DNA from: Carcharhinus longimanus
Lineage: Eukaryota
Reading direction: 5' to 3'
NCBI GenBank assembly: GCA_030264375.1
Contig: JASCQW010000112.1
Location: forward strand, 36,556,444-36,620,443
DNA: 64,000 nucleotides
The translations under genes and the position numbers were made by a program. The notes under the pieces are model-generated. The model was not told the origin of the DNA, searched no databases, and worked only from the letters and a program-made list of their open reading frames with translations. Positions 9,987-34,995 of the stretch are shown here, one piece after another (within the stretch, counting starts at the first letter, position 1; each line of letters starts with the position of its first letter).

Positions 9987-10069
9987 CTGAGCCACCGTAA
10001 TGCCATACTCTTCAAGTGATTCTGAAGATTTTTCTAGTTGTTGAAGGAAATGTCTGATTGACGGGTTGG
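9987..10069 (-). CDS. TXNDC16: TXNDC16 coding exon 2 (83 nt; (T)NPSIRHFLQQLEKSSESLEEYGITVAQ)
   Basis: atttcag acceptor and gtgaat donor; matches human FLEELNEAVRPLQDYGISVAK; phase 1 to 0. Confidence 0.88.
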
Positions 10070-12578: not shown

Positions 12579-14399
12579 TTTAGCAGATAGATGAAGGTAG
12601 TTCTGATCCCAAAAATTGTTTAAATTGGTTGAATGAAATCTTCAACAGTTTTGTTATTTATTTCTGGAAAAAAGAAAAATCAGTAATAAACAAGATATAG
12701 CGCACAAAACATGTTCAATTCCCCAGACTGCATCATGATGTTGACAGTTCCATATATTTTAAGTCTAACAGAACGCAAAACATGTTAAAGTAGCACCAAT
12801 GCATTAGGAGTACAAAATTAACATGGAAAACTAGTTCTCTTACTGTACATCACAGGTCAACTTCTTAAATAATTACTCATTGGAATACATAAAAATCAAT
12901 TGATAAGAATTTTTCTCTGACTAGCTATTCTCTTTTCTAAAAGTCCCTAACTCCCAAGTAAGAATGACAGATTTCACAAGTGGACCCGATGGGTTTTTAC
13001 AACATTAATGAAAGTTTCATGGTCATTATTACCAAGGCTGGATTTATTAATTGGATTTTAGATTTCACCAACTGCCCTGGTGAGATTTGAAATTATACCC
13101 CCACATCATCAGCCTGGGTCTCTGGATTATAACACCAATAACATTACCACAATGTCACCATCAAAGGTACGCCAAGGAGCTTGCAGCAAGGAATGAAGGC
13201 AATGTCAATGTTTTCAGTCTTCTGAATAAGTTACTGCGCAAATCTGTGTCTCAGCCAATTCTGGATCTAACATGGGAAGCCTGACAACAGAGAGATGGTG
13301 CAAGGGTCTGAGCAGAGGCAAGGCAAAGCTGGTCAGTCATGAATGTACATTTGGAAACTGATCCCACCTCTGAAAATCCTATTGTCAAGAAACAGCAGGA
13401 AGATGAGTTGGGGATGGGGGGAGTTGGTGGGGGGCAGGGAGGGGGCTAGGGGCTGGGAAGTTGGGGAGACAATGACTTTTCGACAACACCTGAGATAATA
13501 AGGCAGCCATAGGTAGTTAGGCTTGGATGCTAATAGTATCAAGCGAGAAAGGCATTTCCACAGCTGAAGAATAAGCATGCTGAAGGAAGATAACGTAACC
13601 TGATAAAAAAGGTTGCAAAACGGTCAAAAATGGGGTAATGCTCGACAGTGATGATCACCCAGGACATCAGTTGCAACTCTGATTAGCCATTTAGATGATG
13701 TGACATGCGATATGATCAACCTGATTAGAGACGTTCTAACAGAGCTGCATGATGAACAAACATATGGAAGTATAAAAAAAGTCAAAAGACAGTTTGCTTT
13801 TGGATGTAAATTAGAGAGATGGGACTTTCTGCATGAATAAAGGCAACTGGAGCTTTGTGTTATGGGCGGGGAAACAAGCATTCCAGTTTGAATTCAATTC
13901 TGTTTACTTTTCGCACCTTTTCCCAGTGGCTGAGTGGGTTGCCTCCGAGTGCTTCGGTACCCCTCCCCCCTCCCTCAATTCGCGAAGACGAGCTGNNNNN
14001 NNNNNNNNNNNNNNNNNNNNNNNNNNNNNNNNNNNNNNNNNNNNNNNNNNNNNNNNNNNNNNNNNNNNNNNNNNNNNNNNNNNNNNNNNNNNNNNCGCGT
14101 GCTTCGGTACCCCCCCCCCCCCCCCCCCCCCCCTCAATTCGCGAAGACGTGCTGGTTAGGCGCATTGGCTATGCTAAATTTTTCCCTCAGCGTCCCCAAA
14201 TAGGCACTGCAACGTTGCGACTGGGGGATTTTCACAGTAACTTCATTGCAGTGTTAATGTAAGCCTGCTCGTAACACTCATCAATGAACTTCTCAACACT
14301 GCGCAAAATACTGTCAATTAATTCCGCGGGGGACGGAAAGGAGCGGAAATCCTCGATAGATAAAGCAAGAGGACAACCCATTCTCCGCACGGCCCTCAC

Positions 14400-14490
14400 C
14401 TATCCGTCCCAATGTGCCTCTCCAGAATATTCAGCAACAGCGGCTCAATCCACACCTCAGCTCCTCGCGCCCGGAGAGAGGGGCGGGAAA
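14400..14490 (-). other. TXNDC16: Candidate non-coding first exon of TXNDC16
   Basis: Minus-strand donor AG|GTGAGG at 14400/14399 just downstream of the GC-rich promoter; TSS not determinable from sequence. Confidence 0.35.
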
Positions 14491-14760
14491 TACTAACTGC
14501 CGTTGCGGTGCGACGCCACTCGGCTATTGGTTAATCGGGATGTCAATCATACCGCTTGCAGCCGCTTCCGGCGACAGGGGCGGGGGACAGGACCGCGCAT
14601 GCAGCACCCTGCATGTCCGCCTTCCCCCCCTCCGTCCAATCCTGGCCTGTTCTCACGATGATTGACAGGGAGTTTCACCAATGAGCGGGCTGGTGGGGGC
14701 GGGGCAGGCGGCTGCTGGTTGTTTTTTTTGTTTGGGAGGGGAGGGGCGGGTGTTTGTTGC
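14470..14760. promoter_or_regulatory. Bidirectional CpG-rich promoter shared by TXNDC16 and GPR137C
   Basis: CpG-rich. GC boxes (GGGCGG) at about 14481, 14578, 14697 and 14744; CCAAT boxes on both strands at about 14526, 14636 and 14678; ETS/GABP-like CTTCCGG at about 14565. Lies between head-to-head genes. Confidence 0.75.
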
Positions 14761-14897
14761 TCCTGGCGCTGAGGAAGCGGCTGGGCTGGAGGAGATGGAG
14801 AGTGACTGACTGCAGTAACCAGCGCAGCTTTGGCTCAGGATAAGCTGTGGAGGAAGAGGAGAAGAAGAAGAAAAAAAATACCCCAACAACACAAAGC

Positions 14898-15251
14898 ATG
14901 TCTGTGGCAATGACGGCGGCTCCGGACAAGCCCATCCAGGCTGCAGTGCCTCCCTCAGTGGAACTCGGTTTGACTGTGGTCTACACCGCTCTGTACTCCC
15001 TGCTTTTCCTCTTCGTGTACCTGCAGCTCTGGCTGGTCTTGCACTACAAGCACAAGCGCTTCAGCTACCAAACGGTGTTTTTGTTTCTCTGTCTGTTCTG
15101 GGCAGGCCTGAGGACTACCCTCTTTTCTTTTTACTTTAAGAATTGTGTGCAGGCTAATCAGCTGGAGCCTTTGCCTTACTGGCTGTTGTATTGTTTCCCT
15201 GTGTGTTTGCAGTTCTTCACGTTGTGTCTACTAAACCTTTATTTTGCACAG
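14898..15251 (+). CDS. GPR137C: GPR137C exon 1 ([10 protein letters not shown]...[11 protein letters not shown], 118 codons)
   Basis: GPR137-family TM1-3 ([32 protein letters not shown]; [21 protein letters not shown]); cag|gtatgt donor. ATG at 14898 is preferred over the GTG-started ORF in the track. Confidence 0.92.
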
Positions 15252-17262
15252 GTATGTATTTGGGAGGGGGTCAAAACAGAATCTTTTCATTTTCCTACTG
15301 ATCCCGTTATTGTAGCGATAACGGGCATTGCGTTTGTAGGAGACGGCAGAAACACCGGGCAAAGTGCTGATATGTACGGAACTGTCTTTGTCTTTTTTTT
15401 AATACATCCAAATTAGAGCCCGTCTTCTGAGATGTAAGGCGCCTGTATTATGTTCCTCCTATTGTACCAATTTTGCAGAGCAATATGATTTGCCACTGAA
15501 ATAGCGAGTACCTTGATCTGAGAGAGGGACTAATTTAATATGAGAGACTTGTCTTGTCTGGATGAATATTCTAAGCGAACCGTTGTTTTCAAAGAAACAA
15601 GTGAAAACGGGGAGCCATGCCATTCCGGTTTTGGATAATCACCAATTATGACGTTAACTGGTTTGACTGCCCACTGCCTTTCAGAACTGCGTTCGGCTAT
15701 TTATTGGGGGGGGGGGGGGAATGTTTTTTCTGAAATCCCCTAACCAGTTACAACAGATTTTCTTCCGTTGCTAGAGGTTTCTCGACAATTTCATCCATTT
15801 CAAAGGATTTCAGTCTGTTAGTAATCTGGCATTGTTGTTGTTTTTGTTCCAGTCTTGTTTTTAATACGAGCAGATAATCGATAAATAAATGGTCCCATTT
15901 CGCCACCAAAACGATTGCAATTTCCAATTGTTAAAACTTTTTTAATGCTTTGAAGCAATCCGCGTTACCGAGCTGCTATTAATGAACCAGCCTTCCTGCG
16001 GTTATTTCTGTTGCGTACTGTCGATTGAGTTTTGAGAAGATGATCATATTAAAACTCGCGTTTTAATGCTTCACTTATATTTATCAATGTTAACGTAATT
16101 TAAGTTTGTTTACTTGGTTCGACCCGCAAGAACTATGTAGAGGTCGTAGCGATTATTGCAATTCATTTAATTTGAAGTTTGTTCGGGATTACAAGTAAAT
16201 ATTCCATTCGTAAGAATCGTAGCAGCTGGATACTGGAAATAAAAAAATTACTTAACGAGGTAATCCACCTCGGGGTTGGGACGTTCTCGCCTGTCCACGG
16301 CCTCTGATTTGGGTTCGAACTTCAAACTTCCACCCTAGTCAGTTGTGTACATCCTACTGTTTACATAAATAATTGCGCAAAATGTTAATGATTCATTGTA
16401 AATCTCTCTGCATTATCCAGAATAACAAAGGCAAATTTGTCCTTTGCAAGTTAGAAGTACTCTATAAAATTATAAAGGACGAGTACAATACTTAGCCACT
16501 GTCTGGGTGCAACTGAGTTTTGTTATGACCGTCAGAGATAACGTTTTTAAAAAACGTTAACTAACTTAAAATGTGAAACTGTGGTTTTGTTTTAGTTAAA
16601 ACTTCTACTGTAACAAATGACTAGAATTCATTATTGACAAAGTACTTTTTTTTGTGGGTAATGTGTAATTCAGTGACATTCCCATATATACTTACCTATC
16701 AGCCAACACACTCTCCCCAGAATTACAGTCCAGTTACTGACAACTTCCTATGGGTTCCCATATCGCCGCCTCAACAGGTAGCAACTTTGTCACTAAGTGT
16801 TTTTGGAAAGCTTCTTAAATCCACCACCAGTAGTAAAGCATATTCTAATGATTCTTCCCCTTAACTGTGCCACATCAAATCTCTGAAACCCCGAGAACCT
16901 ATAGAAGGCTGCAAGATATATTCCTTTGACTGGAGTGTTTTTCCCCCGTATCCAACTATGTTAGCTCTCAAAGTCAAGGACCCTTTTCTCTCTGGTCGTC
17001 ATGTTTGATTTCTGTTTTTCCATGGAAGCCTGTAACCTGATCTCAAAATGGCTTCCTCTGTCTTCCCCATGGCAGTAGAAACACATTCACATTTCTACCA
17101 AAATATAAAGTTAATTAACTGCCCTTGGCCTCAAATGCCTTTCATCTTAGTAAATTGTGGCACCTTTCTGTTGCTTTAGCAGTATTTACCATGAATAGAT
17201 GCATTGTATCCAAGCATAAATGCCTTGCATCTTCTTCCCAGCAAAATGACCTCAGACTTACC

Positions 17263-17540
17263 CAGGGGTAGCACAATGGTTAACACTGCTGTCTCTGTGC
17301 CAGAGGTCAGGGTTTGATCCCAGCCTTGGATCACTGTGTGGAGTTTGCACAGTCTCCATGTCTGCAGGTGCTTATGTTTCTTTCCACCGTTCACAGATGT
17401 GTAGGTTAGGTGCATTAGCCATGGTAAATGCATGGAATTACAGGGATAGGGCAGGGAGGGGGGCCTGGGCAGAATGCTCTTTTGGAGAGTCAGTGCAGAC
17501 TCAGGCTGAATGGCCTATTTCTGCTTAAGAGTTCTGTGGT
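17263..17540 (+). mobile_element. HE1-type SINE
   Basis: tRNA-like head (gtagcacaatggttaacactgctg...ggtttgatccc), gtgtggagtttgcac core and HER1-like tail. Confidence 0.75.
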
Positions 17541-17924
17541 TACTTTGACCTCTTACAATTAAACCACCCAACCTTGCATCAGAACAGGTCACACAACCAA
17601 TTCATTTACCCCAATAAAGCTACAGTTTCAAAATATAATCTAGAATACCTTAATTGTATCTGCTGTAATTGACAAACTGCCTTCAAATTGAGAATAATTG
17701 AAATATAAAGAGTACTGTTATTATAACTGAGATCAAACAATGCAGACTGTATTGGTATTCATGTTTTTCAGTTGATCTAAAGTTATTTTCTGAATTAATG
17801 TGTGGTGGCCAACTATGCTTTCTGAAGCTTCCTTCCAAAACTTTAACACTCCATTCCTTTCTCAATTTAATAAAAATCTGTTGATAAAACTTTCAGTCAC
17901 CAATACATTAGCTTCCCCACAGTG

Positions 17925-18170
17925 AACTAGGCTTGTACTCGTTAGAGTTTAGAAGAATGAGGGGAGATCTCATTGAGACGTATAAGATGATGAATGGNNN
18001 NNNNNNNNNNNNNNNNNNNNNNNNNNNNNNNNNNNNNNNNNNNNNNNNNNNNNNNNNNNNNNNNNNNNNNNNNNNNNNNNNNNNNNNNNNNNNNNNNTTA
18101 TTGAATGGCGGGGCAGGCTCGAAGGGCCAGATGGCCTACTCCTGCTCCTATTTCTTATGTTCTTATGTTC
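17925..18170 (+). mobile_element. Young CR1 LINE 3' end (gapped)
   Basis: LYSLEFRRMRGDLIETYKMM followed, after the gap, by the tail ...gctcctatttcttatgttcttatgtt. Confidence 0.85.
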
Positions 18171-19249
18171 CTAATCAGCCTTGTACTTGGGGCATCTTGA
18201 TCCTTAATACTAAATGCAACTTGTAATGTCACTTATTGGGGACTATGAAGTTCTGTGAATTCAAAGGACTTCCGGTAGATCCATAAGCAGCCTGCTTTTA
18301 TATTAGATTGAAATTTGTTCTGCTAGGTGATAAGTGATTGAAGCAGTCTTCAAGATGATGGAGAATGAGACTGTCTTGCTTGTAGGTTCTCAAGTGAAGA
18401 TTCTATGGTCTTCGCTTTTATACTAAAATTGCAAGATCAAAAATTCAAGTTTTAATGGATAATATTGTTGCATTAATTGTGTGGTTTTAAGGGAAATAAC
18501 AAATTTCCAGTAGGCCTGAGGCCTTTTTACAGAAGCCTCAGGCACTCCTTGCTTTGACTTTCATTCAGATACAGCGATAAATAAAACTGGCTCTTTTACT
18601 AACTTACTCATCAAACTTTTTTGCTCTGTTATTGCAGCAAGGCATTAACTGTTGAATCCTGAAAGTAAACATGTTTACTGGATGAAAGCTGGCCAACAAC
18701 TTCAAAAAACGATACTAAAACAAACAATGCTGTAACACTCAGTAGTCAAACATTATCTGAGGAGAGAGTTGATGTTTTTTGATCACAACTGTAAAAATTG
18801 TCCTAAGGTCTAAACAAAATGTTACACTGCCTCACTTAAGCTGTAACTATGGCAAACATTCCTTTGTCTGTATTAGAGGAGGAAATAACAAAATTGAAAG
18901 AAAATCATCAAAAAGAAATACACATTTTGAAAGCTCAAGTTACTTTTTTTGTGTGGTAGTCTCCATCTTAAATTGCTTGCTTCAGTGTTTGCTGGAATTG
19001 AGCTCCAGTTGAAGTGAATGATTAGATCAGCATGAGGGGCTGAATGGTGTTATTGTTTGTCACAGCAGAACATAATCTAGTAATGATGGGGGGTTGGGGG
19101 GGGGATTAGGCATTTTCTTCTAAGAAAATTTTAGTGTTGTGGGCTGTTTACATCTGTCTTGTTAACTGAGATTGTTCCCAGTTTGGGCAGTGGTTCTCAA
19201 GTGTGGTGATCGGCCAGAATCCTTATCTACATCCCTTGTGATGTTTCAC

Positions 19250-19795
19250 AACTGTACTGTGTACTGTGAACAGTATTGGTTAATTTATTTAAGGAAAGAT
19301 GTCAATGTGTTGAAAGTGATTCAGAGAAAGTTTGTCAGACTAATACTTGGAATGGGCGAGTTATCTTAGAGCAAAGATTGAACAGGCTAAGCTTGTATCT
19401 AGTGAAGTTTAGACACGCAAGAGACTACTTGATTGAAATGCACAATATCCTGCTGGGGTGGATGTGGAGATATTTCCTCTTGAGAGAATTTAGAATCAAG
19501 GGTCTTTTTTTTTTATTGAAAAGAAATGGGTTGCTCATTTAAAATGGATGAGGCTATTTCTCTTCTTCACGGCTCATGTCTTTGGAATGCTCTTCCTGAC
19601 AAGGTGGTGAAAGCAGAGTCTTTGAATATTTTTAAGGCAGAGGTGGATAGTTTCTTGGTCAGCAAGGGGGTGATAGGTTTCAGGGTAGGCAGGCTACAGC
19701 TTTGAGATTACTATTAGATCAACCATGATTGTAAATGATGGAGCAAGCTCAAGGGACTGAATGCCTGACTCCTGCTCCTTGTTCATATGTTCATA
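19250..19795 (+). mobile_element. Old CR1 LINE 3' fragment
   Basis: YLRKDVNVLKVIQRKFVRLILGM..LS and tail cctgactcctgctccttgttcatatgttcat. Confidence 0.75.
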
Positions 19796-21658
19796 GCTAT
19801 ACTGGCTCCCAGATGTGTGGTGTGAATTGTCGTAAGTGCAAGCAATGGCTGCTTTTGAAAGCAAGATTATTTTTAATTAATATGATGGAATGTAGGTATT
19901 GATTTCTCATTGTGATTTTATAGCATATTAGAATATTTGATTATTTGTGTAAATGTCTATCCTTTTGCTGGTATGCATCAGTAATTTAGTTGAAATATTT
20001 AATACATAAAAAAATACAGTTTAAGGTTAGATATCTGCATAAGTTCTTGTTTATTCTGAGAGCATTGTGGCAAACAGAAGTAAGTTAAGTAAGACCAGTA
20101 GGCAGTCCACAGCATGTTTTGCCCTACCAAAGTGATCTGTAGATTAGGAAGTATGAGAGACACTGAATTAGGATTGTAAGCAATAAAATGTGCACCCCTT
20201 CAAATGTTGCCCCTCACCCTTGCCTGTGGTACATTGCCGAAGGCTATACGGTAAGAGTTGAGAGGAGTCCAGGACTTGCATCCCTGGAAAAACTTTAAAA
20301 CTTTTTGGTTCAATTTGGTCTGGACCCCAGTGCAATTTTACTTTATAAACAACAAAATTAAAATCAAATTCAATTATCAGCAGTAAGTCACTTCCAAAAA
20401 AGCCACTTAACACTGACTGCTAGAGTTGAAAGTATCTGCTCTGGACCCAAACTCTACAGCATCAAAATCTTCTAGTTCTGACATAATTCCTCTTCCCAAT
20501 ATCCATGTTTATGCTGGTACTCATCATCTCTGAGCACTGCTGTTCTCCCCCACCACCACCATTTAAATTCAGTACATGTTGGGAATCTTGTCTTCCTGAT
20601 GAAAAGTACTTTTCACTGCCTTCTCACTTGCTCCTGCCCCACCAAAGCATTAATCTGCATTCTCTCACTTTCTTGAAACAATTCTTCCAATTCCTGCCTT
20701 CCAGGCTGGAAGGAAATGGCTCTGGATGAACCATCAGCAAGCAATGAGCCCTTTGGCAGAACATTTCAAGTTTTAAGTGTCAATTAAGTTCTCGCAGGTC
20801 TGGACCACATGGGCCCGTTTGGTTAAGAACAGATTTTCTTCTCCAAGACGTTTTGTTTTTAGCAAGTCTGGTAGTTTCATGGTCACCATCACTAGCACTA
20901 GCATTTTAATTCCTGATTTAATTAATTAAATTTAGATTGCCTAGGCACTGGTGAAATGGGGACTTGCCTCTGGATTATTTGTTTAGTAACATAACTAGCT
21001 ATTGTAGATCTAACATATGCAGTACTATACATGTATTTGATACAAAGGCAAATTTGAATTCAACTTCCAAAAGTTGCTTAGTAACTGCAAGTGTTTTGAG
21101 AAGTTGAAGTACTACAGCTTCTTGATCTTCAGAAATTACATGGATTCAAGGTATAAATTGTTTATCCTAGCCACTGGCATAAAATAAATTCTAGTCTTAG
21201 TTTCATTGGGGAATTAGTGTATAATGCAAAAGTGTCATTAAACACTAGGATAATTACTTGAGGATAACTATTAGAAATAAACAGGCTACAGTAAAGAAGT
21301 TTTCCTCTGGCATTGGATAGATGTTCCACTTATTCTGCCATTTGCAAATAAAATGGTTACTATTTCTTGCCAAGTGCAGCTTGCAAAATCAAGTGTAACT
21401 CGTCACACTTCCAATGGAAGTTAAATCCATTTTCTGTCCAGCCTCCACTGCAATCATACTGTCTCTGGAGCAACAATAGACTTGACAAAGTTGGATATAT
21501 TTTCTGAGCTGGTATTCAATGTATTCCTCTTCTTGCCGCTGCCCCAATCCCCAGGTGTATTTCTGTCAAATGCTGCTTACTTCAGATCAACAGTGAACTT
21601 CTTCATTTTCTTAATAACGGCAGCTGATGTTCTTTTTGTCTTCCTGAGAGCATATATA

Positions 21659-22328
21659 GTGAGTGAATTAATGAGGGGAGATGGGGACAAATTTGCATTT
21701 ATATATTGCACAGTATTTTTTTTCAAACCATTTTTAAGAATCTCACACATTCAGTTATTTTGAAATGCAATGCCAGTTGTAACATTTGTGGCACTGGGGG
21801 AGCATAAAAGTGAAATGATTGGCCATTTTAAAATATGATTTTTATGCCTCTAATTAAAGAATGTTTTAACTAAAAGATTGGTCATGGGATTGGATTTACA
21901 GACAAGATGGTTGTTAAAGCGACGGTTTCATGCCGTAGGACATGGTTTATTGCAAATTGATGGTTTCATGAAATGAACCACACCTCCAGCTTTAATCTTT
22001 GAGATCACTTACCAGTACTACTGTCCTTGAGTGCTATAGAAGCCTGTGGTGAGAACAAATGGGTGATTTGGAGCTGTAATGTTTACAGCACTGGCATAAA
22101 CTAATATTAGGGGCCCTTTTTTCCTCAAGGGAAAGCAGAGGAAATGGGTCTAGTAGTCTGATACTTTTTGCCTTTTTCTCTGTCTGATACTTAAGTCAAA
22201 ACCAATATAACCCTTCTTATATGAATTACTTAACGGCATTGTGGTGCATATTTATTTGAGTTTGTGCAAAATACTCTGCAATATATAAATGCAAATTTCC
22301 CCTCAACTCCCCTCCTGAATTCACTCAA
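21659..22328. repeat. About 60-bp imperfect inverted repeats (21660-21719 and 22268-22327) flanking about 550 bp
   Basis: Arms match at 53 of 60 positions by manual alignment; TA dinucleotide just outside each arm. Confidence 0.75.
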
Positions 22329-23069
22329 TAGTTTGCACTTAAGGCAACTAACTTTAGTGTTTAATGACCAAAATCTAGACATTGCAAATAAAACAAATAC
22401 AATAAATCCAATTGTGCAGTGAGTGATGGAATTGAGGTTCATGAGTTTCTCTCCCTACTGAATTAGCTAGGGTATCCAATTTGTGTGCCATCATTAACAT
22501 AGAGGAAATGTAGTAAATCCTACATTTATTCCCCTCCTTTCTCTTCAACATTCTCATCTCAAAATGGTGAAGCACTGTTTTATTTGTCATTGAATCCCAG
22601 TAATACAGAAGGAGGCCATTTGGCTCATTGAGTATTCACTGACTCTCCAACAGAACATCTTTTCCAGGCTCAAGCCCCTGCCTGATCCCTGTAATCCCCC
22701 TAACCTGCACATCTTGGAAGGCTAAGGGGCAAGTTAGCATAGCCAGTCCAGCTAACCTGCATATCTTTAGACTGTTGGAAGAAATATATGCAGACATAGA
22801 ATATGCCTCTGGTCTGCCTCTTGACCAATGACTGATGTTTGTATGTAAACTAAACAATTGAGTGTTGGCAAGTTATTTGTGGAGAGTAACATAATTGAAC
22901 CAGAGCATTCAAAGTTTAATCAGGGCTCAAGGTTTTTGAGAACTCGAAGTGTCATTATGTTTTCACCCCCCTGCTTAAGGTAGAGATCAATAGTGACTAA
23001 AAGATCCAGGTGTGGGATTAAGTAGCAGATTTCGGTGCTCACAATATCTGAGAACCAAATGTATTAAAA

Positions 23070-23280
23070 ACCAAAAGAGAGAAGTCTGGCAGCATCTACG
23101 AGAGAAAGCTGACATTGAGTCCACATGAACTTTTGTTGAAGCTCTGACACCACTTTGACAAAGGGTCATTTGGACTCTGTCAACTCTTTTTCCCTCTCAT
23201 GCTGCCAGACCTGCTGAGATTTTCTAGCATTCTCTTTGGTTTCAGATTCCAGTATCTACAGTAATTTGCTTTTATCCAAT
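23070..23280. mobile_element. Penelope-like element terminal repeat remnant (inverted arrangement)
   Basis: gtctggcagcat...gagtcc...tgac paired with gtca...ggactc...atgctgccagac; related copies at about 6770, 25200 and 43090. Confidence 0.5.
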
Positions 23281-23381
23281 ATTTAATAGATTAGTTGATC
23301 TGTGACATAGATGGAGTCTGAAGCCTGGTTGTGAAAGTGATGGCTATGTTTGAGTGGCCTCCTTTTGGTCACTGTTCAGCT

Positions 23382-23473
23382 ACCTTCAAATTAGTCTCAA
23401 GTTGACTTCATGTGGTGACAGTAGCTGTAAAATTTTCAGATACCTGAAGTCAACTTGAGACTAATTTGAAGGT
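23382..23473. repeat. Perfect 29-bp inverted repeat with 34-nt spacer
   Basis: accttcaaattagtctcaagttgacttca (23382-23410) is the exact reverse complement of tgaagtcaacttgagactaatttgaaggt (23445-23473). Confidence 0.95.
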
Positions 23474-24245
23474 TATTTCGGTGGATTCGCTTCTATTTAT
23501 AAATTACCAACACGTCTCCAAGTGCAGGCATAATTCAGTAATCGTTTTGTCATTTTTAACCTATTTTCCAATAATGTGATGTTTATAGTTGAATCTCAAA
23601 ACATATAATGTCTTAAAGCAGAATAGATTCAGAGCATAGAATCATCTTTGTTTCTCTGTCCTTCAGCCCATATGACAATGCATTACAGCACTACCACAGA
23701 TGTGATGGTACAATTACAATGTGCTAAGTTAAGAGCCAGTTCCATTATACTGTGCCTTGGGAATTTATGATGGAAACAGTTGATACAGAAGTGTGATTAA
23801 AAATATAACTATAGGAAATAAGGCTGTATGTTTCTGAATCATGCCTCAACCCATTCCCTTTATCCCTCTTCCTTATTCTGCTTCACTTTGATCTGCTCCT
23901 TTGTTTCTTTACCAAGTCATTTGTTTCCTCCCTCAGTTTCTGCACTGAACAAGTTGTCTTCCTGATTTATTTTTCCCCTCGTTCTCTCAATGGATGTGAT
24001 GGACAGGGCCAGCCTTTGTTGTTTATCCCTAGTTACTCTGAGAATTGGCAACAGACTTCCCCCTTCAAATATGTGCATTATTGATACAACAGAATAGTTA
24101 ACTTGATCATTTCAGGGACAATTAATAGTCAATCTTGTTGGTGTGGATCTAGAGTCACATACAGACTAGTGCTTAACCAGAGGACATTTGTGAATCATTT
24201 GGTTTCTTACAATAAATAACCTGACAAATTTATGATCTCTTTTAC

Positions 24246-24893
24246 TGTGTCAGGGGTCAGTTTAGAAACTCCAAGATGCACTATGAAGTTAATCTAGACC
24301 AGAAATGTTTGATTTTGGCATTAGTGTGAGCATAAGGTGTTTCACCCCAGATGTGATTCTATTGACCCACTAGGAAGCATTTAACTTTTACTAATTGAAA
24401 TACTTAAATATGATATACTTTTTAACTGCTAGCTGATCTCTATTAGTTCCATTTTAAACAATATTCCCCATGGACCTAAACTTCATAATCAGTTAACAAA
24501 AACACAGGCTTGCTTGGGTCGCCAGTCATCACATCTTTAACACCTTTAGAGAGAAAGACAGATCTAGTTTGTAACAGGTCCTGAACTTCAGCCTACAGAG
24601 AAAAGAGCTGTTGCTGTTGGCAAATGCAAAGAGACTTCCCCCATTGTAAACATATCTCCTCCATTAGCACACAACGTGCTCTTGTCAATCTAATCGAACA
24701 CTACCCTGAAAGCCCACAGGACTACCCAAAAAATAACAAAACTGCATTAACTCAGATTAAAACAAACATCTCAATAACTATGAGCAATTATTCTTCTGTG
24801 TTCTCAGCAGGTGGGCTGCCTGGAGTAGACAAAACACCATAACCAGAGCTGAAGTTTAAAACCATTGCCTTAACAAGAAACAGCATAATCACA
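24246..24893. mobile_element. Possible solo LTR
   Basis: TGTG...CACA termini with imperfect 4-bp flanks (ttac/atac); about 650 bp, no ORF. Family not confirmed. Confidence 0.35.
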
Positions 24894-25189
24894 ATACTAC
24901 TCTTGATCTAAGTGTTTATATGAGAGATGTGGATGTTTTACCATCTTCGGTGGTTGTCCCAATTTTAATTCCAGCAGCAACCATTTTTGTACATTTTAGA
25001 AGAAAACACTTATTATCCCACATGTGGCATGGAAGTTGATTCAATAAGTGTCAAAAGGGTATTGGATAAATGTTTGAAGGGGGAAAAAATTGTCGGGCTA
25101 TGAAAAGGACAGGGGAACACAATTTAATGGTTCTTACAAAATCTGGCATGGGTATCATGAGCCAAATGTTGTCCATTCCAATTAATCTG

Positions 25190-25690
25190 AAACAAATAAA
25201 AAAAGTTTGAAAATCTTAGCAGGTCTGACAGCATCTGTGGAGAAAGAACAGAACTAATGTTTTGAGTCTGGATGACCCTTTGTCAGAGCTGAAGACAATT
25301 GGAAAATAGGATGAGATCTATACTGCTGTGGGGGATGGATAGAGGGTCAGCAAAAGGTGTAGACAAAGGAGAGATCAAAGATGTCATGGACAAAAAGCAT
25401 GATGACCATGGCTAAGGAGGATGCTGCTAGCGGCAGGTTAAGATATCAGAATGTGCAAGTGTAAACAGTGTGACAAAAGACAACCTGAAACAGGTGATGG
25501 CTCTTGTGGGGTGGGGAGACAAGGGAGAGTGGTGAAGTAAAAAAGATGGAAAGGGGGGGAAATTGAAAAATGAATCAAAGGAAGGCAATAATGAAAATGC
25601 ATATGAAATTTTAAAGAAATCTTTTTAAATGGGGTGAAAAGGGTGGACAAGAGAGATTATGGTCTGAAGTTGTTGAACTCAGTGTTAAGT
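25190..25690 (-). mobile_element. Penelope-like retroelement 3' fragment
   Basis: agcaggtctgacagcatctgtggaga... terminal motif followed by a purine-rich tract and ggtctgaagttgttgaactc, typical of fish and shark PLE ends. Confidence 0.5.
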
Positions 25691-26098
25691 TGAGATTACC
25701 CTATTCAAAGTCATAAATGGCATTGTCTGTGATTATAGTCACTGTATTTATTTCTCCTCCATCTGATATCTTTGTCAGTTGACCACAACATCCTTCAGTT
25801 CCTTTCCTTTTGTCCTGCTCAGTGGGACTTGCCTTTAGTTCCATCCATGCTAAGCTATCAAATGGTAGCCAGGCAATCTCTAATAGTGGCTTCTCCTACA
25901 GCTACTTAGTTTATATTTGAAGTGAATGCCTAAGTGCAAATTCTGGCCCTCTTCCCTTCCTCATCAAGCATGTTGCCTGTTAGCAGCAGCATCCACAACT
26001 CTCATATGCACTAAACAAACCAGCTTTTTGTCTCCACCTGTAATTGCCTCTGTCAACTTGCTTGCCCAATATCCAGTGTCCCACCATGTCTCCCTCTA

Positions 26099-26205
26099 TC
26101 ATAAGAACATAAGAAATAGGAGCAGGAGTAGGCCGTCTGGCCCTTCGAGCCTGCCCCGCCATTCAATAAGATCATGGCTGATCTGTCGTGGCTCAGTTCC
26201 ACTTT
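26099..26205 (-). mobile_element. Young CR1 3' tail (about 105 bp, 5'-truncated)
   Basis: cataagaacataagaaataggagcaggagtaggcc...; near-identical to the tails at 18098, 29455 and 55450. Confidence 0.85.
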
Positions 26206-28836
26206 CCAGCAAGACAAAAGTGTAGCTCTTGCCTCATTATTGGTTGGTGGATTTTAATTTGAGCTGCGTGATTTTTGAATTCAATGTCGGCCAGTGGTTT
26301 CACTTCAGAGAAGAGCTAAGCATGAGCTGAACAGAAGTGAGGTGGAACTGGGAGTTCACGCAGAGGACTGGAGTTTGTGCATTTCATAACAAACTACTTT
26401 TTTGATGTAACCCCAGTGTTGGGATTTCCAATAAATCTTTCACAAGAAATTTAAAACAAGGAGTTCTGGAAGTCTCCTTGTCAATACGTATCTTACTGTA
26501 AATCACAGATTGCATTGTGAACTTCGAGTTGAATCAGGTGCTGCGCTATTGGAGATAGTTGAGTATCCCGTTGATGCTACCTGTGAGAGGATCCCAAATT
26601 CCCAAAGGATAAATACTGGATCTTAGTGGTGGATACTTGTTTGGAATAATGTGAGGAATAACCCAGTGAGGAACCAGTCCAGTCATTGTGTAAACAATAA
26701 GGAGTATAGAAAAACACATGACAAGAAATATTAATTAACACTATGACTCCTAAGTATTTTAATAACTAAACACACTTTTATCTGAAATTAATCTTATTCC
26801 CGGAATATCCTCATGTTTCCTGAATTCACTGGGACACCCCTTTTCCAAATGGCACCCAGTTTAGTAATTCCACAAGTCAAATCCAGCTCATCGTTACCAC
26901 ACAATATAGCTTAGATGACCAAGTCTGGGAAAAGATCTTTTCCTGGCTCAGTGAAGATACGAAAATATGTTTTATAGAGGAGAATATCTGCTGTGACTCT
27001 AAATATTAGATAGACTAGGCCTCTGTGGCTTTGATCATAGATAGGACAGGCCTCCATGTCTCTGCTCAGAGATGGAACTGGTTTTTCTGAAGATTTTTGA
27101 CCTGTCTGGCTATTGGGTAGAAAATTAGCCTCCATCCCCAAAGAGTGTATTAGCAGATATACCGTTCAGCTGCTTTGATATCCACCCTATGGATTTGGCT
27201 GTTCTATCTCAAATTCTTTGCCTTTCGAAGTTGTCATTTTGTATAGCACCACTGATCCCTGGTAAGCAATGTTTCTGTTATGGTAATTCACACCTCAATT
27301 CGCTAAATTCCTGCTAATCCTGTTACTTGTCCGTTTCTTTTCATCTCAAATTCATTGTTAACCTCGTAAACTTCAATTCCTATCAAGATGCCCTTTTTCA
27401 GTTGAGACATTAAATCAATTCCCTGTCCTCTCAGGTGTATATGAAAGATTCCACAGCGCTATTTTGAAGAAGACCATGTGAGTTGCACTGACGCCCTGTT
27501 AGTCTTCTTTTGAAGACATTGCATCTACATTTGCTGTTCCTGGTAACAGTAATGACTTTCACGTCCATTGGCTGAACCATCTCCATGGTACAAATTCTCT
27601 GGCTCCAACTAATGGTTATCGTGAAATTAAGATGTGAAATGAAGATGTCAAATCAACGCCCCCGTGGCCCAGGGAGCATCGTCTGGGCAGGGGACACCAG
27701 TCCAGGGGCAAGGATGGTTGCAGACCTAATACCTGAGGCTCCAGCTTTTCTTGTGCCTTGACAATCTCTTCTTTCTCACCCAAATTTCATGCCACTGGAA
27801 CCAGCAAAGCAATTCCCACCCTGCCCAGAGGAGCCGGTGCAAGACAAAAGGAAAGGAAAACAGTTGGAAGAAGGAAAGTGACTACTTGCAAGAAATCAGG
27901 CCAAAGCAAAATATAGATAATGGTATAGATATAGATAATAAACAGCAGCATAATGGTCAAAGGAATTCACTTTCACTAAAGCATCGGGGTGGAATAGCTG
28001 TGTATTTGTACTCAGAAATGCACAGAATTAGTAAAATGTAAAATTAATAACCGTTGCAAGAAGAATTTAGGTGAGAGTGTGTTACACGTGGGACAGAATC
28101 TTACGCACTCTTTCCCCCTCCCACCCCAGTGAGATCTGAGGTGAGAGTAAGCATGAGATTGCCTGGATGGGAATACCCCGCCCAGTCTGATCTAACACTG
28201 GTTTGGGGGCAGGGCCCCGGAAGGGAATCCTGCCCTTGTCCCGGTTAAGGTGCTTTTGTGGCCACTTGAGGGCATATCCCACCCAGCCTCAATTCTTAGG
28301 CGGATGGGGGAGGAGGGGTTGGGGAGGGGGTGGAAGAAACACCAAAATGAAGTCAGTTTGATTCAGGGTGGGAAGGTAGGGAGGGTGAAGCATCTTCCAT
28401 CCGAAGCCCCCTTCTGACTGGGGAACACCCTTGCCTTAAGACCCAGTAACTGCCAGCCTCCCTCCACCTATCCCAGTGGCCTATTCCCTGTAACCCCAAT
28501 ACCCCTGTAACGTTCCTATACGCCCAGTCAATGCATGAAAGGGCATTGGGCCTGCTGGAGTTGGCAGCATGAGTTCTACCACAGTTAGAAATACAAATGG
28601 GAAAAGAAAGCCCACATTTTGTAAAATATCCCTATGTCTTCCGTGGGTTGCTGACAGCAGTGCCAGAAGATTCCTTTTTAATTCTTGGAAATGCCTGGTT
28701 ATTCTTGATGTGTTTTCGGCCTTACTCAGGCTTTGCAACACCGTTGTGTGTCACAAGCTGGATAGGCCAGAGGGCCTTTCCCTGTCCTCCTGTTCCTATG
28801 ATTGTAAAACAAAACAAAACCCGGTTATATCCCTAG

Positions 28837-29091
28837 GTTACGGCAGACACCCGATCGTCACCATCGGAGCTATTTCACAAGCAGGAACAAGAGCCGCACC
28901 CGGTCACCAGGGAAGCGTGAACAACCCAGCAGCCATAACTCGGACAAGAAGAAAAGCTCTTCCTACAGCCCTCGCCGTAAGAGCAGCTCCCGCAGCTCCA
29001 GCAGGTCCGTGTCACGCTCCTGCTCCCGATCGCACGACAAGAGAGATGGACGGAGCAAGTCACGGTCATCGCCTCGCAAGGAACAGTCCAG
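28837..29091 (+). pseudogene. Orphan RS-rich exon (255 nt), SRRM3-like, inside GPR137C intron 1
   Basis: ccctag|G acceptor and AG|gtaaga donor. The frame from 28838 is open exactly to the donor: LRQTPDRHHRSYFTSRNKSRTRSPGKREQPSSHNSDKKKSSSYSPRRKSSSRSSSRSVSRSCSRSHDKRDGRSKSRSSPRKEQSR. SRRM3 similarity is from memory only. Confidence 0.6.
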
Positions 29092-29454
29092 GTAAGACTC
29101 ATTCTCCACCACTGAGTACCAGCCTGGTTGCCAGCACTCACAGCAGTGTGTTTGTCTGAATGCAATGTGAACAATGCCAGCTATAGTAGGGTAGTGATCT
29201 GGTAGGACAGTAATTCCTCGCTTAACATTGTGCTTCTGTTCCAGAAAAGCCCAACTTTAAATGAAACAACTTTAAGCGAATCTGATTTTCCCATTGCAGC
29301 CAATATAAAAGCTAAAGTTAGATTCTGTTAGGAACTTTCTCATTAGAAAGTATTATGCCCTATAATTTGAAATACTTTACATTGCTCACTTCCTATATTC
29401 ATAACTTAAGTAACTTTTAAAATGAAATAAATATAAAAATATTTTTAAAATGTG

Positions 29455-29715
29455 AACACAAGAAATAGGAGCAGGAGTAGGCCATCTAGCCCTTCGAGCC
29501 TGCACCGCCATTCAATAAGATCATGGCTGATCTGAAGTGGANNNNNNNNNNNNNNNNNNNNNNNNNNNNNNNNNNNNNNNNNNNNNNNNNNNNNNNNNNN
29601 NNNNNNNNNNNNNNNNNNNNNNNNNNNNNNNNNNNNNNNNNAATAAGATCATGGCTGATCTGTTGTGGCTCAGTTCCACATTCCCACCCTCTCCCCATAA
29701 CCCTTAATCCCCTCT
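29455..29715 (-). mobile_element. Young CR1 3' tail (gapped, with duplicated flanks)
   Basis: Same tail as 26099; aataagatcatggctgatctg occurs on both sides of the 100-N gap. Confidence 0.8.
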
Positions 29716-31949
29716 CTTCTCTGTAGCCTTATTCAGTCCTATAATTTGCCATTTCCTTAGGCCTCCACCTTTGTCGAGCCTTTTTTATATTCTTTCATGG
29801 ACATGGGTGTCGCTGGTTTGGCCAGCATTCTTTATTGCCCATCCACAATTGTTCTTAAGATGGTGGTGAACTACCTTCTTGAATTGCTACAGCTCATGTG
29901 ATGTAGGTACACCCATGTAAATTCCTCTCTCTCCTTTAAAACCAATTTCCCCAATTAAATATAGGGAAGACCACAGCCATTGTCTCCGGACCTCTATCTA
30001 AAACTCTGTACTCTTACTATTGATTCCATCGCTTTCTCTAGCCATTGTCTCTGGCTGCACCTGACTGGTACCCCTGGTGGCCCTGAGCTAACATAATCCT
30101 ATATTCTTGCATCACTAATAGCTGCTTCATCTGTCTGCCCAGCAGCTTCTGCAACTGTCGTCCATGGCTTTGTTGCCATTTGATTGTGGAAATATCCTCC
30201 GGACAAGTCTCGTTCCCTGTACTCTCAACTTCAACTCATCCAAATCACACATACCCTATATCATACCAAAGTTTCATGCATTAGGCAGTCCTTTCCTTGT
30301 TGTACATTGAAACATTTATTGTAAGTTTAAGTCCCTCCATGTCTTATACTAATCTCTATAGCCACTTCCAGGTCTTTAATTCCTGAGGTCACATCCCTTC
30401 CACTCCCCATCAAAATTCTCTTCCTCCAATTTCTGTGTTTTCCCTCTTTCCTTTACCTGATTATTGGTAGCTGTGCCATCCCAGTTGCCTAGGCCAATTG
30501 TATGAAATTCCTCCTAATCCCTGCAACCTCTCAATCTCCCTTCTGACTTTAAGACTAACCTTGTAAGTCATTTCCTCTGACCAAGCTTTGCAAGCCCTCC
30601 TGATATCTATTTTTGCTTTATCAGTTTTTGTCTGATTTCACTTTTTNNNNNNNNNNNNNNNNNNATGTTTTTACGTTGAAGGCACAATGTAAGCACAAGT
30701 TTTTGTAGATAAGTGCAGATACTGTCTCTTTCTGGAGACTTGCTTGTATGAAGTCCTTTTAGATTTTCTAGGACTCTTCATATAAAAGTAAGTGATTTTC
30801 TTCCTTTGAGTTCTTTAAGTGTTTACAATTCCTTGTTTTCAAGCCGACTTTAATGGCGCTTTATTGGCTGCCCTCCAACTAAGATCATCCTGAGTTTGAA
30901 ACTAAAATAAGTAAATATTGTGCATCTGCCACAATTGTTATCTCAATCTCTTTGAAACCTTGATTTATCTCTCCTTTTTTAAGCACGTTTCTGCATTTTC
31001 AGCTCTGGTTTTCTTTCCCTGCTCCCAAAGCATTTGAAGTTGTTTTTCCCTTTCCCTTTCACATTTAATTAAATTAGGGTTGTTTATTTAGTCCAAACTT
31101 TTGTTTTAGGAATTTGTATATTCAAAAATATACCCTGTATATTCAAAATTGCTCCATTCATCCTAATCTGTATCCCTTCTCTCTTTCCATCTCCTCCACC
31201 TTGCATATATCTGAATCCCATATGTATAATTTGATCATTCCTGTCAACACCATCCCAGAGGATTTCCATTTCCTGTATCCTGTCTCATTTACTAACAAGA
31301 TGAGGTTTCTTGCTGCTTTGGTTCATGAAGCAGTCATGCAAAGCATTACCTAATTCTTAACTCTAAACCATTTCATGTTTGGTTTATTGAAGTCTTTTCT
31401 TAACAAAGCTTTCCTGTTCTCTTCTAGCATTTCTCTTTGTAGAGTAAATTAACCTCCTTTCGTTGACCTGGAAATCTGTAGCACATCTGTGATCAAACTT
31501 GGATGCTGTCTAAACAGGATAGTTTATTTTATTGCACATGATGTACTGCAGAATCCATTTCATTGAACTCTGATGTCCATTTTGTTAGTGCTGAAAATTG
31601 TAGCTTTTGAATGTTAAATTGTTTTCAACCCTTGGATTTAATGCATTTCTGCTATATCCACATGTGCTGCCAAAATTTCCAGTTTTGCCATCTTATTTTT
31701 GATTATTGTTTACACAAGTAATTGTATAATACAAGCTGCTGACATAGTTTTCACAAATGTAGACTGGATCATGTAATTTGAACTGTTTTTATTCAAAAAA
31801 AACTTGCCTATATTGTGGGTGGGGTTTTCAGGTTGTGCCCACCCCATAACTGGAAATTCCTATCTGAGGTAAGTCCATGAAACTTTCCATTCCACTTGTG
31901 CCAATTTCTGCACCCGACAGGACCATAAATTTTACCCCAGTGTGTTTCA

Positions 31950-32310
31950 AGACCATCAGATGTCTCATCACTTTCCAACTAGTGAAATGCTTGTGAAGTG
32001 TAGTCACTGTTGTAATATAGGAAGCATGGGGGCCAATTTGCACGTACCAGGTTCTCATTGACAGCAGTGTAATAGTGACCAAGTGGGTTGTTTTGGTGAG
32101 CAAATGAGGGATAACTCCCATGCTCTTTATTGAAATTGGGCCATGGGATCTTTTATATAACCCTGATGAGTTGACAGGACTTCTGTTTGATGCCTCAGCT
32201 GAAAGTTGGCACTCCTGACAGTATAGCACTCCCTTGGTACTGCACTTGTCAGCATTGGTTTTAGTTCTGGAGTGGAGCTAGTGTGCTAACTACCAAGTCA
32301 TGCCTGGCAT
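31950..32310 (-). mobile_element. Deu-domain SINE (SacSINE1/AmnSINE1-like), old copy
   Basis: Reverse-complement Deu-domain motifs gccatgggatcttt and ctgaaag..ggcac.cctgacagt.tagcactccc..gtactgcact; similar remnants at about 11480, 27390 and 57000. Confidence 0.55.
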
Positions 32311-32654
32311 CTAATCATTTGTGGTGATCAGTGCTCCTGATGTTAGCATGTACATTGTAGTTTGCAGTAAAATGCCTCCATAACTCCAGAATTACCTGAA
32401 GANNNNNNNNNNNNNNNNNNNNNNNNNNNNNNNNNNNNNNNNNNNNNGCCACCCGCACACCCCCCCCCCCCCCCCCGCAAACCCCTGACCTCAATTCCCC
32501 ACTTTAGCCTTGAAGCACTTTTGCCTTGTCCTATCCAAGCTCATCTCATCAGTGACTCTCTTCCTAACCATTCACCTATTTCTGTTCCATGCCATCCAAT
32601 GTTAGCTGACATTGTTAATGTTTCCCACTCCTCAAACACCTTCTGACTTCACAG

Positions 32655-32950
32655 CATGGTGGCACAGTGGTTGACATTACCTCAGTGGTAGAGACCCAGG
32701 TTTGATTCCAGCCTTGGGTGACTGTTCTGTGTCTGCATGGATTTCCTTGGTGTTCCAGTTTCGTCCAACAGTCCAAACATGTACAGGTTAGTTGAATTAG
32801 CCACGCTGAGTTGCCCCTTTGTGTCCAAAGATATGTAGTTTAGGAGGATTAGCAGGGTTATAGGGTGGGTCTGGGTAAGGTGCTCTGGAGAGTCACTGCT
32901 GACTCAGTGGGCTGAATGGCTGCCTTCTGCACTGCAGGGATTCTATGACT
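32655..32950 (+). mobile_element. HE1-type SINE
   Basis: catggtggcacagtggtt head, ggtttgattcc B-box-like motif, tail ccttctgcactgcagggattctatga. Confidence 0.75.
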
Positions 32951-33710
32951 TCAGAAATTACCATTTTAGAAAACTGCTCTTGAACCTTACAACTTTGCCA
33001 ATCATCCCATTTTCAACGTGCTTCAGCTTGGTTGCAGTATTTAACAGCACCAAATGTCATCAAACAACTACTAGTTGGCTTAATTGAAATATCCCATTTA
33101 CAGTTAATACTCCTTGTACTTCATGATCTCTCCATAGCATTCAGCATGGTTAACCATGCCATTCTCCTCTGTGGTTCCATTCCTACCTAATTGGACCAGA
33201 GCAGCAGTGACTATCCCTCCATTTTCAGGCTAGGATTTCCTTCTGTTTCTCATCTACATGATGGTAGTGATAATACCATCTGTAGAAACCAAGTCACTTT
33301 CTGGCTGCATGTTTCCCCTCTTTCTCAACTGATCATCTCATCTATAAGCCTTCCTCCGCATCCAATAAAAAGGAAGGTCAAGGTCATTGTTTCAGCCCAT
33401 GGTATATTTTCCATTCTGTCGCTGATGCTTCCAGCTGTATTCTCAGTTCCACCTCAAGCCAGATACTATTTACAGGCCCCATATCTTGTTTGACCCTGCT
33501 TTACATCTTAAATCACCACTATCGAAAGCATTGTCTAGTTTGGCTACTTCTCGCAAATGTTTGTGGTAAAAGTATTTTAATGTATGGTTTTAGGAATGTT
33601 AAGTAGTGCATCATTAGATTTTTTTTGTGTAACATTTGTGTATTCCTAACTATATGATGCATTTGATGGCTTTTGCTTTTCTTTCAATATGATAATGTAT
33701 GTCTTTGCAG

Positions 33711-33760
33711 GTTATTTTTAAGGCCAAAGCTAAATATTCTCCAGAACTTAACAAATACAA
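33711..33760 (+). CDS. GPR137C: GPR137C exon 2 (VIFKAKAKYSPELNKY(K))
   Basis: tttgcag acceptor, gtgagt donor, 50 nt; matches the GPR137-family intracellular loop. Confidence 0.9.
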
Positions 33761-34141
33761 GTGAGTACCATGCACACCATCTTTGTTTTAGCTAAATCCA
33801 GCAAAAAAAGCACAAGCGCATTTTAAGATGAGCCTTTTGTCACACTTTGGAAAAGCTTAATTACTTAAATTTTTAATTTAGTTGCCACTGTAGGTGAGTA
33901 AACACTAAATAGAATTTTTGCTGAGTTTCTTTTGGCCACATATAAAAGCAGTCTGCCCCAAATTTTCCAAAATGGGTGATAACAAAAAAGCTTTATTCAT
34001 AACACACCCTTGAACTTGTTTACTGAATCGAGTTTCTGAAATAGAATCTGCATGAAGCAACATGTAACGAACACACTTTCTTGGAGCTCATTCAAACTCC
34101 AGATAAACATCCTCCTAACTACTTTTCCTTGGTGTTTTCAG

Positions 34142-34370
34142 GATTCCATTGCGGCTAGCATTCCTATTTGCTAGCATTCTGTTTCTGGTGGTAAACTTCA
34201 CATGTGCAGTGCTTGTTCAAGGAAATGTGCCAGAAAGCCAATTGAAATGGACTGTGTTCGTTCGAGTGCTCATCAATGACAGCCTCTTTGTGCTTTGTGC
34301 TGTTTCGTTAGCAGTATGCATCTTCAAAATTGCAAAAATGTCATCTGCGAATGTCTATCTTGAGTCAAAG
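34142..34370 (+). CDS. GPR137C: GPR137C exon 3 ([11 protein letters not shown]...[17 protein letters not shown]...[10 protein letters not shown])
   Basis: ttttcag acceptor and gtaaaa donor, 229 nt; [13 protein letters not shown] matches human GPR137C ([13 protein letters not shown]). Confidence 0.93.
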
Positions 34371-34995
34371 GTAAAAGTTGGATTACTTTCTGTGTGTGCA
34401 CTTGGGTTCAAAAAAAGTCAATGTGAATGAAGAATCTGAATTCATTAATTTTGAGTAAATTATTCCTTACTAGCATCTAACGTTGGTATGCCTTAAGTGA
34501 GTCATTTGAAAAATTTTCATATAAAGGATCAGGTTTCATGTTGAAGTGCCAATTAATCTGCTTGCATCTCTCAAACGTTGATTTGGAGTTTTTGCCGTTT
34601 TAGTGACACTTGTGCTCTCAGGATCAATAAAGCAACAAACTTTGAATCCAATTTGCAATTATTCCAGCTATGAATTTCAAATAAAGGCTTTACTGTGGGG
34701 CAAAAAAAAACAAAGTCAATTTAATAATAAACCATACAATGAGCAGATGAAGGCTTGAGTCAAGGGTAGGCATGTTTACAGATTGCAAGTGAACTTTGTC
34801 ACTCTCCTTGCAATAATCAGGATATTAATTGTACCATAATGTTCACAATGTCAGGTATTTATATTGTCTATTAATAATAGAAATTATACTGTGGCTGCAG
34901 TACCCAGTTTATTACTCTGGCTAATTGAAAGTTGTTGCAGTTCACCTTTATTTTAATCCATTCAGATAACATCATTTGTCTTTTTTTCCCCCCAG

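What the first reader, a model, noticed from the sequence alone, without database searches (positions are those of the whole stretch)
28837..29091. Stranded SRRM3-like RS exon in GPR137C intron 1: possible captured poison exon
Seen: a 255-nt segment with AG and GTAAGA splice sites, CpG-rich within CpG-poor intronic DNA. Its RS-rich frame (phase 2-2) is open and stops immediately after the donor, and it is absent from the ORF track. No neighbouring exons of an RS gene are visible. Recalled: KSSSYSPRRKSSSRSSSRSVSRSCSRSHDKR...SPRKEQSR parallels human SRRM3 KSSSRSPGPHPRSWSSSRSPSKSRSRSAEKR...SPKKPLSR, the region upstream of the eMIC microexon-regulating domain. Intron-like flanks suggest DNA-level transfer rather than retroposition. 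It lies sense to GPR137C. Spliced after exon 1 (phase 0) it reads VTADTRSSPSELFHKQEQEPHPVTREA* (TGA at 28918-28920), so it would be an NMD poison exon. Its polypyrimidine tract is weak, which could allow regulated inclusion.
Basis: partly seen in the sequence, partly recalled or inferred. Interest (0 to 1): 0.75.

Follow-up and report, generated by a model that had tools for sequence, protein, structure and literature searches.

The report
Shark SRRM3 exon, likely mis-assembled
An intact exon of the neural splicing regulator SRRM3 sits with its own flanking DNA inside the first intron of the shark GPR137C gene, but the 3.3-kb block carrying it is bounded by repeats and an assembly gap and shows no sign of a second copy, so it is most likely the shark's ordinary SRRM3 exon put in the wrong place by the assembly, not a captured regulatory exon.

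Summary
The exon is real. 28837-29091 has AG and GTAAGA ends and encodes SRRM3 residues 402-487 (84% identical to electric-ray SRRM3); the match stops at both splice sites. No other SRRM3 exon is in the window. The host is GPR137C, and the exon-1 frame does stop at 28918-28920.

The placement is doubtful. The exon lies in a block, 26208-29541, between two same-direction CR1-type repeat tails; the right one runs into a 100-N gap whose two sides disagree. The block has 2.6 times the CpG rate of the rest of the intron, and a free scan puts its left edge at 26258. Both outer flanks are pyrimidine-rich; the block is not. In three deep read sets the exon shows no extra depth that a second copy would give (weak measure). 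With strong conservation of the RS frame, this suggests the one true SRRM3 exon, mis-joined through repeats (about 0.8).

No displayed contig bridged either edge and no RNA was examined, so a real recent insertion (about 0.15) is not excluded. Nothing supports poison-exon use.

The parts
28837..29091 (+). SRRM3 coding exon (RS region just before the SRRM_C domain), phase 2-2, intact AG and GTAAGA
26208..29445 (+). Foreign block: the exon with flanking DNA inferred to be SRRM3 intron; CpG- and GC-richer than the host intron
   Evidence: X1 contig 26685-29480 and X9 contigs 26212-27622 and 28115-29476
26097..26207 (-). Young CR1-type LINE 3' tail (CR1 label recalled), 98.5% identical to the copies at 18098 and 55450; inferred left edge of the block
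29446..29541 (-). CR1-type tail running into the gap; its first 31 nt are shared with organism C
   Evidence: (X9 record 30 ends at 29476)
29542..29641 (.). 100-N assembly gap; its two sides overlap by 28 repeat positions and differ at 3 of the last 7; inferred right edge of the block
29642..29718 (-). CR1-type piece after the gap, closer to the 26097 copy than to the piece before the gap at the overlap
14898..15251 (+). GPR137C coding exon 1 (phase 0 donor)
33711..33760 (+). GPR137C exon 2
28918..28920 (+). TGA that would be a premature stop if the exon were spliced after GPR137C exon 1

Best explanation
The exon is an intact SRRM3 exon, and the 3.3-kb block around it (26208-29541) is most likely a piece of the shark's real SRRM3 gene that the assembly joined into GPR137C intron 1 through near-identical repeat tails. 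In the inferred path the assembly enters a repeat tail of the GPR137C intron at 26097, leaves through another copy into SRRM3 intron DNA, ends in a third copy at 29446-29541, and returns across a 100-N gap to the rest of the GPR137C repeat at 29642. In the animal the exon would be spliced in its RS frame between the other SRRM3 exons, and GPR137C exon 1 would join exon 2 with no such exon between. Shown: SRRM3 identity, block composition, repeat and gap edges, depth figures. Inferred: single copy, the false joins, the true location.
For: (1) The RS frame is strongly conserved: 56 of the last 58 residues equal ray SRRM3 (alignment), with both splice sites and 20 CpG kept. An old neutral copy, or one used in the other frame, would not keep this, so it is the true exon or a recent copy. 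(2) No extra depth on the exon: bin 28584-29237 reads 13.7, 6.66 and 12.2 in X1, X6, X9 against medians of 13.25, 5.66 and 13.05 in 8 low-depth bins of 30; a second exon-only copy predicts 18.4, 7.9, 18.1 and a whole-bin copy 26.5, 11.3, 26.1. The X1 contig over the exon has depth 7.74 against 8.1 and 8.66 for contigs over GPR137C exons. (3) The block is foreign to the intron: CpG 40 of 2983 against 68 of 13376 (p 4e-6, exon and repeat tails left out); an unconstrained scan starts the CpG-rich segment at 26258, and 0 of 60 block permutations reached the score. GC 0.426 exceeds every same-size window of GPR137C introns examined (max 0.408), and divergence from organism C is 108 of 2773 against 173 of 6046 (p 0.013). 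(4) Both outer flanks are pyrimidine-rich (0.64, 0.62) while the block is 0.50; 5-7% of 350-nt windows reach 0.62. (5) The gap's two sides disagree where they overlap, and the piece after the gap resembles the 26097 copy. (6) The right flank is GPR137C intron: a white-shark alternative exon starts at 30984.
Against: No displayed contig bridges or contradicts either edge; the joint and loose-end tables were flooded by repeat matches, with 2552 joints and 8503 loose ends not shown. The tool states that summed contig depth is no copy number, and human-like contigs are dropped without notice, which could hide a true SRRM3 contig. In X6 the exon bin (6.66) is above the median and not far from the 7.9 predicted for a second exon-only copy. 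Two other bins inside the block (27276-28583) read about twice baseline or more in all three runs (X1 27.6, 28.8; X6 12.2, 12.4; X9 40.2, 29.4); I put this down to low-copy repeats (table 3 shows 4-7 contigs at 27226 and 27258, and bins outside the block do the same), but did not prove it. The left edge has no gap and its repeat is only 110 nt, which short reads can span. All four 100-N gaps inside this repeat family have colinear sides, as true joins would. Tests that the two outer flanks are one split element were not significant. The free scan's right edge fell at 30236, not 29541. A real insertion by repeat recombination would leave the same block structure.
Confidence: 0.8

Rival explanations
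1. The block is a real, recent and inert duplicate: a stretch of SRRM3 between two CR1-type repeats was copied, for example as a circle formed by repeat-repeat recombination, and entered a matching repeat in GPR137C intron 1; it is skipped in splicing.
For: Same-direction repeat tails at both edges and foreign composition fit this as well as a mis-join. The left edge is gap-free. Circular intermediates are reported for human segmental duplications (PMC7450558; search listing and start of abstract only).
Against: A near-identical second copy should raise depth 1.5- to 2-fold; the X1 block contigs read 7.62 and 7.74, at or below the GPR137C exon contigs. The gap sides disagree.
Confidence: 0.13
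2. The block is real and the exon is spliced between GPR137C exons 1 and 2 as a poison exon, giving a stop at 28918-28920 and nonsense-mediated decay.
For: Sense orientation, intact splice sites, phase-0 exon 1, and a stop 171 nt before the next junction, beyond the usual 50-55 nt rule (rule recalled).
Against: It needs the placement to be real first. Conservation is in the RS frame, which a poison role would not use. None of 120 listed GPR137-family proteins holds either peptide, though decayed transcripts would rarely be annotated. Any internal phase-2 exon in sense orientation is likely to give such a stop, so the stop is no sign of function.
Confidence: 0.04
3. The placement is old and shared by related sharks, or the exon was moved rather than copied (one SRRM3 allele lost it), so a single copy is seen at this site.
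For: Organisms B and C hold the exon with flanking sequence (records 14 and 30). A cut-and-paste move would leave depth unchanged.
Against: Those contigs do not reach GPR137C sequence, so they fit the SRRM3 locus equally. An old copy would not keep the RS frame; a move would break SRRM3, whose eMIC loss harms vision in zebrafish (10.1101/2021.09.08.459463, passages).
Confidence: 0.03

Closest known systems
SRRM3 (serine/arginine repetitive matrix protein 3; Narcine bancroftii XP_069741050.1)
   Same: 83.7% identical over residues 402-487; the match begins and ends at the two splice sites.
   Different: Only this exon is present: no cwf21 exon, no SRRM_C exon, no start codon in frame.
SRRM4 (nSR100)
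   Same: Paralogue with an RS region and SRRM_C domain.
   Different: Skate SRRM4 gives only 30% low-complexity identity to the exon (P0106).
Repeat-induced mis-join in a gapped assembly (general knowledge, recalled)
   Same: Block bounded by same-direction copies of a very high-copy repeat, a fixed 100-N gap with disagreeing sides, 13 gaps in 64 kb, no extra depth.
   Different: The left edge has no gap; the true joins were not observed directly.
Segmental duplication or translocation through a circular DNA intermediate (PMC7450558; cattle KIT translocations, PMC12235870; search listing and start of abstract only)
   Same: A genomic block with introns found at a distant site.
   Different: Those cases are large and shown as extra copies; here the block is 3.3 kb and no extra copy is seen.
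Poison (NMD) exons and pseudoexons
   Same: An included exon would carry a stop 171 nt before the next junction.
   Different: No inclusion evidence; conservation is in another gene's coding frame, not tied to the host.

Membership tests
SRRM3 exon | Best match is SRRM3 over the whole exon | tested here: met
   83-84% to ray SRRM3, 45-54% to bony-vertebrate SRRM3, 30% to skate SRRM4
SRRM3 exon | Homology bounded by splice sites in frame | tested here: met
   match 28835-29092 only; AG and GTAAGA
SRRM3 gene (functional locus here) | cwf21 and SRRM_C/eMIC exons in the same locus | tested here: not met
   no other SRRM3 exon in 64 kb; no Pfam domain in the exon
Poison exon of GPR137C | Premature stop more than 50-55 nt before the next junction | tested here: met
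   TGA at 28918-28920, 171 nt before the donor
Poison exon of GPR137C | Physically inside the GPR137C transcription unit | tested here: inconclusive
   no displayed contig bridges 26097-26207 or 29446-29718; indirect signs point against
Poison exon of GPR137C | Spliced to exons 1 and 2, rising when decay is blocked | not testable with these tools
Segmental duplicate | A second copy at the donor locus | tested here: inconclusive
   no extra depth in X1 and X9, ambiguous in X6; the measure is weak and no whole genome was held
Retrocopy | Joined exons without introns | tested here: not met
   single exon with splice sites; flanks shared with organism C (record 30)
Assembly mis-join | Reads contradict the joins | tested here: inconclusive
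   tables were cut; edges lie in repeats and a gap with disagreeing sides

The most novel reading that the evidence does not exclude
A 3.3-kb circle cut from SRRM3 by recombination between two CR1-type repeats entered a matching repeat in GPR137C intron 1 so recently that it is still identical to its source, and its SRRM3 exon, with native splice sites, now acts as a ready-made poison exon that lowers GPR137C.
Probability: 0.04. Interest if true: 0.6.

Novelty: not a real feature. Interest (0 to 1): 0.12.

Why it matters
If the best reading holds, this is a warning for annotation: this assembly can move a coding exon into another gene through short repeat tails, so its SRRM3 model would lack an exon and lone exons near 100-N gaps should be checked against reads. 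If the insertion were real and spliced, it would be a clean example of a regulatory exon arising in one step from another gene's coding exon.

Tried and rejected
No whole genome was held, so the donor locus could not be searched. Run search: 22 holders, no RNA holder listed; no evidence either way. The 437 letters left of 18166 (X9 record 26) and the 69 left of 26212 (record 29) were not displayed. First idea, that the whole 18098-29541 contig is foreign, was dropped: 18171-26096 has host-like CpG o/e of 0.07-0.16. Continuity of one old LINE across the block: Pfam on six frames, nothing relevant; tblastn with 132 LINE proteins, 0 hit both flanks; profile HMM, no score; frameshift-tolerant profile alignment 15.9, reached by 22 of 150 shuffles; nucleotide alignment 129.5 against null 116 +/- 12. 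The repeat-subtype argument is weak: table 5c shows the diagnostic letters mixing among copies. An exact 25-nt exon pattern had 0 matches in metagenome contigs. Four look-ups of earlier findings returned nothing. Retroposition rejected (splice sites and flanks kept). SRRM4 origin rejected. Paper searches listed no report of an SRRM3 piece in GPR137C; PMC11979771 passages did not bear on it. No supplements were read.

Full report
Observation. The segment 28837-29091 is preceded by AG and followed by GTAAGA. It holds 20 CpG (o/e 0.92 against 0.24 for the window; 0.4% of 255-nt windows reach that count). Its RS frame is open and stops straight after the donor. Read after GPR137C exon 1, which ends in phase 0 at 15251, it gives 27 residues and TGA at 28918-28920, 171 nt before the donor. 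The acceptor's pyrimidine fraction, 0.55, equals that of 2 of 4 GPR137C acceptors examined, though its T fraction is lower.

Identity. A search of longer proteins gave one hit among 1266 candidates: SRRM3 isoform X2 of Narcine bancroftii, E 6e-26. tblastn places residues 402-487 on 28835-29092 at 83.7% identity and finds no other SRRM3 exon in the window; other hits are low-complexity cross-matches. The last 58 residues match at 56 (alignment). Bony-vertebrate SRRM3 proteins match at 45-54%, skate SRRM4 at 30%. Pfam puts cwf21 at 59-102 and SRRM_C at 481-544 of the ray protein, so the exon lies just before the C-terminal domain. SRRM3 and SRRM4 share a 39-residue C-terminal eMIC domain needed for microexon inclusion (10.1101/2021.09.08.459463, passages); I did not map eMIC on the ray protein. 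The host gene is GPR137C, 97% identical to shark and ray proteins in exon 1, with seven exons mapped from 14907 to 45378. TXNDC16 and ERO1 exons flank it. That human SRRM3 and GPR137C lie on different chromosomes is recalled.

The assembly. The window has 13 N runs, five of exactly 100. Four of the five lie inside one very high-copy repeat family that I call CR1-type from recall. The exon lies 450 nt before one such gap (29542-29641). Its two sides overlap by 28 repeat positions and differ at 3 of the last 7; at those letters the piece after the gap resembles the repeat copy at 26097-26207 rather than the piece before the gap. This subtype argument is weak on its own, since the letters mix among copies (table 5c).

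A foreign block. Leaving out the exon and repeat tails, 26208-29445 has 40 CpG in 2983 positions against 68 in 13376 for the rest of 16401-33710 (p 4e-6; 32 in 2542 without 28100-28540, p 9e-5). An unconstrained two-breakpoint scan starts the CpG-rich segment at 26258, about 50 nt from the repeat at 26207, and 0 of 60 block permutations reached the score; its right end came at 30236. GC is 0.426 against 0.389, above every same-size window of GPR137C introns examined. Divergence from organism C is 3.9% in the block and 2.9% outside (p 0.013, from 2 and 4 listed contigs; two contigs over GPR137C exons left out). The 350 nt on either side of the block are pyrimidine-rich (0.64 and 0.62; block 0.50), a level reached by 5-7% of windows, as if one tract had been split. 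Four tests for a single old LINE across the block were not significant. The right flank is GPR137C intron 1: the first seven residues of a white-shark alternative exon match 30984-31004 after an AG.

Reads. The run search listed 22 holders; I laid four on 14850-34450. X1 holds every sampled word and may be the source sample, so it is not independent. It has one contig over 26685-29480 with no differences, so the exon and its near flanks are assembled correctly. Organism C has a contig over 28115-29476 with the exon and both flanks. No displayed contig bridges either block edge, and the tables were cut by repeat matches. The exon bin reads 13.7, 6.66 and 12.2 in X1, X6 and X9 against medians of 13.25, 5.66 and 13.05 in 8 low-depth bins outside the block; the other 21 bins were left out as raised by repeats. 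A second exon-only copy predicts 18.4, 7.9 and 18.1. The X1 contig over the exon has depth 7.74, those over GPR137C exons 8.1 and 8.66; the eight listed X1 contigs range from 4.43 to 11.2. Against this: the tool says summed depth is no copy number, human-like contigs are dropped silently, X6 is ambiguous, and two block bins (27276-28583) read about double or more in all three runs, which I attribute, unproven, to low-copy repeats.

How it most likely works. The conserved RS frame, intact splice sites and kept CpGs mean the exon is either the working SRRM3 exon or a very recent copy. A recent copy should add depth, and none is seen. The simplest reading is that a 3.3-kb piece of the real SRRM3 gene was threaded into GPR137C intron 1 through repeat tails at 26097 and 29446, returning across the gap (0.8). 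In the animal the exon would be spliced within SRRM3. A real inert insertion by repeat recombination would leave the same structure and is the main rival (0.13). The poison-exon reading needs both real placement and inclusion, neither shown (0.04); its stop codon follows from reading a phase-2 exon in phase 0, and none of 120 listed GPR137-family proteins carries either peptide. An old shared copy or a move without duplication gets 0.03.

Comparison and verdict. The exon is a member of SRRM3 by homology and exon boundaries; it is not a retrocopy and not a functional SRRM3 locus here. It would work like a poison exon if included, but physical linkage is inconclusive and inclusion untested. Six paper searches listed no report of an SRRM3 piece in GPR137C; from those I saw listings and the starts of abstracts, plus passages of two papers, and no supplements. 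The finding is most likely an assembly artefact around an ordinary exon. Interest 0.12.

Noticed in passing
window 30984-31046 (+): Homologue of the 21-residue alternative exon in white-shark GPR137C isoform X3 (P0121): the first 7 residues match after an AG, then the match in that frame ends.
   Followed up: partly
window 13996-14095: A 100-N gap whose two sides repeat the same unique-looking sequence around a poly-C run, so some 100-N gaps here mark unmerged overlaps and are true joins.
   Followed up: no
window 17925-18170 (+): Young CR1-type repeat with a 100-N gap; organism C's contig aligns from 18166 with 437 letters before it not displayed, which would fit absence of this insertion in C (record 26).
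   Followed up: no
window 14250-14850 and 15750-16400: CpG-rich stretches around GPR137C exon 1; TXNDC16 coding sequence lies on the minus strand at 9981-10535, so the two genes appear head to head.
   Followed up: no
window 23382-23473: Hairpin with 32-nt arms, 97% complementary, 28-nt spacer (I17).
   Followed up: no
window 52357-53221: Inverted arms of 77 nt, 97% complementary, 711 nt apart: possibly a small DNA transposon (I1).
   Followed up: no
window 21657-22330: Inverted arms of 63 nt, 87% complementary, 548 nt apart (I8).
   Followed up: no
protein searches: Only one cartilaginous-fish SRRM3 (Narcine) appeared among the 120 listed hits, though many shark GPR137C proteins did; likely the word filter on low-complexity sequence.
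   Followed up: no
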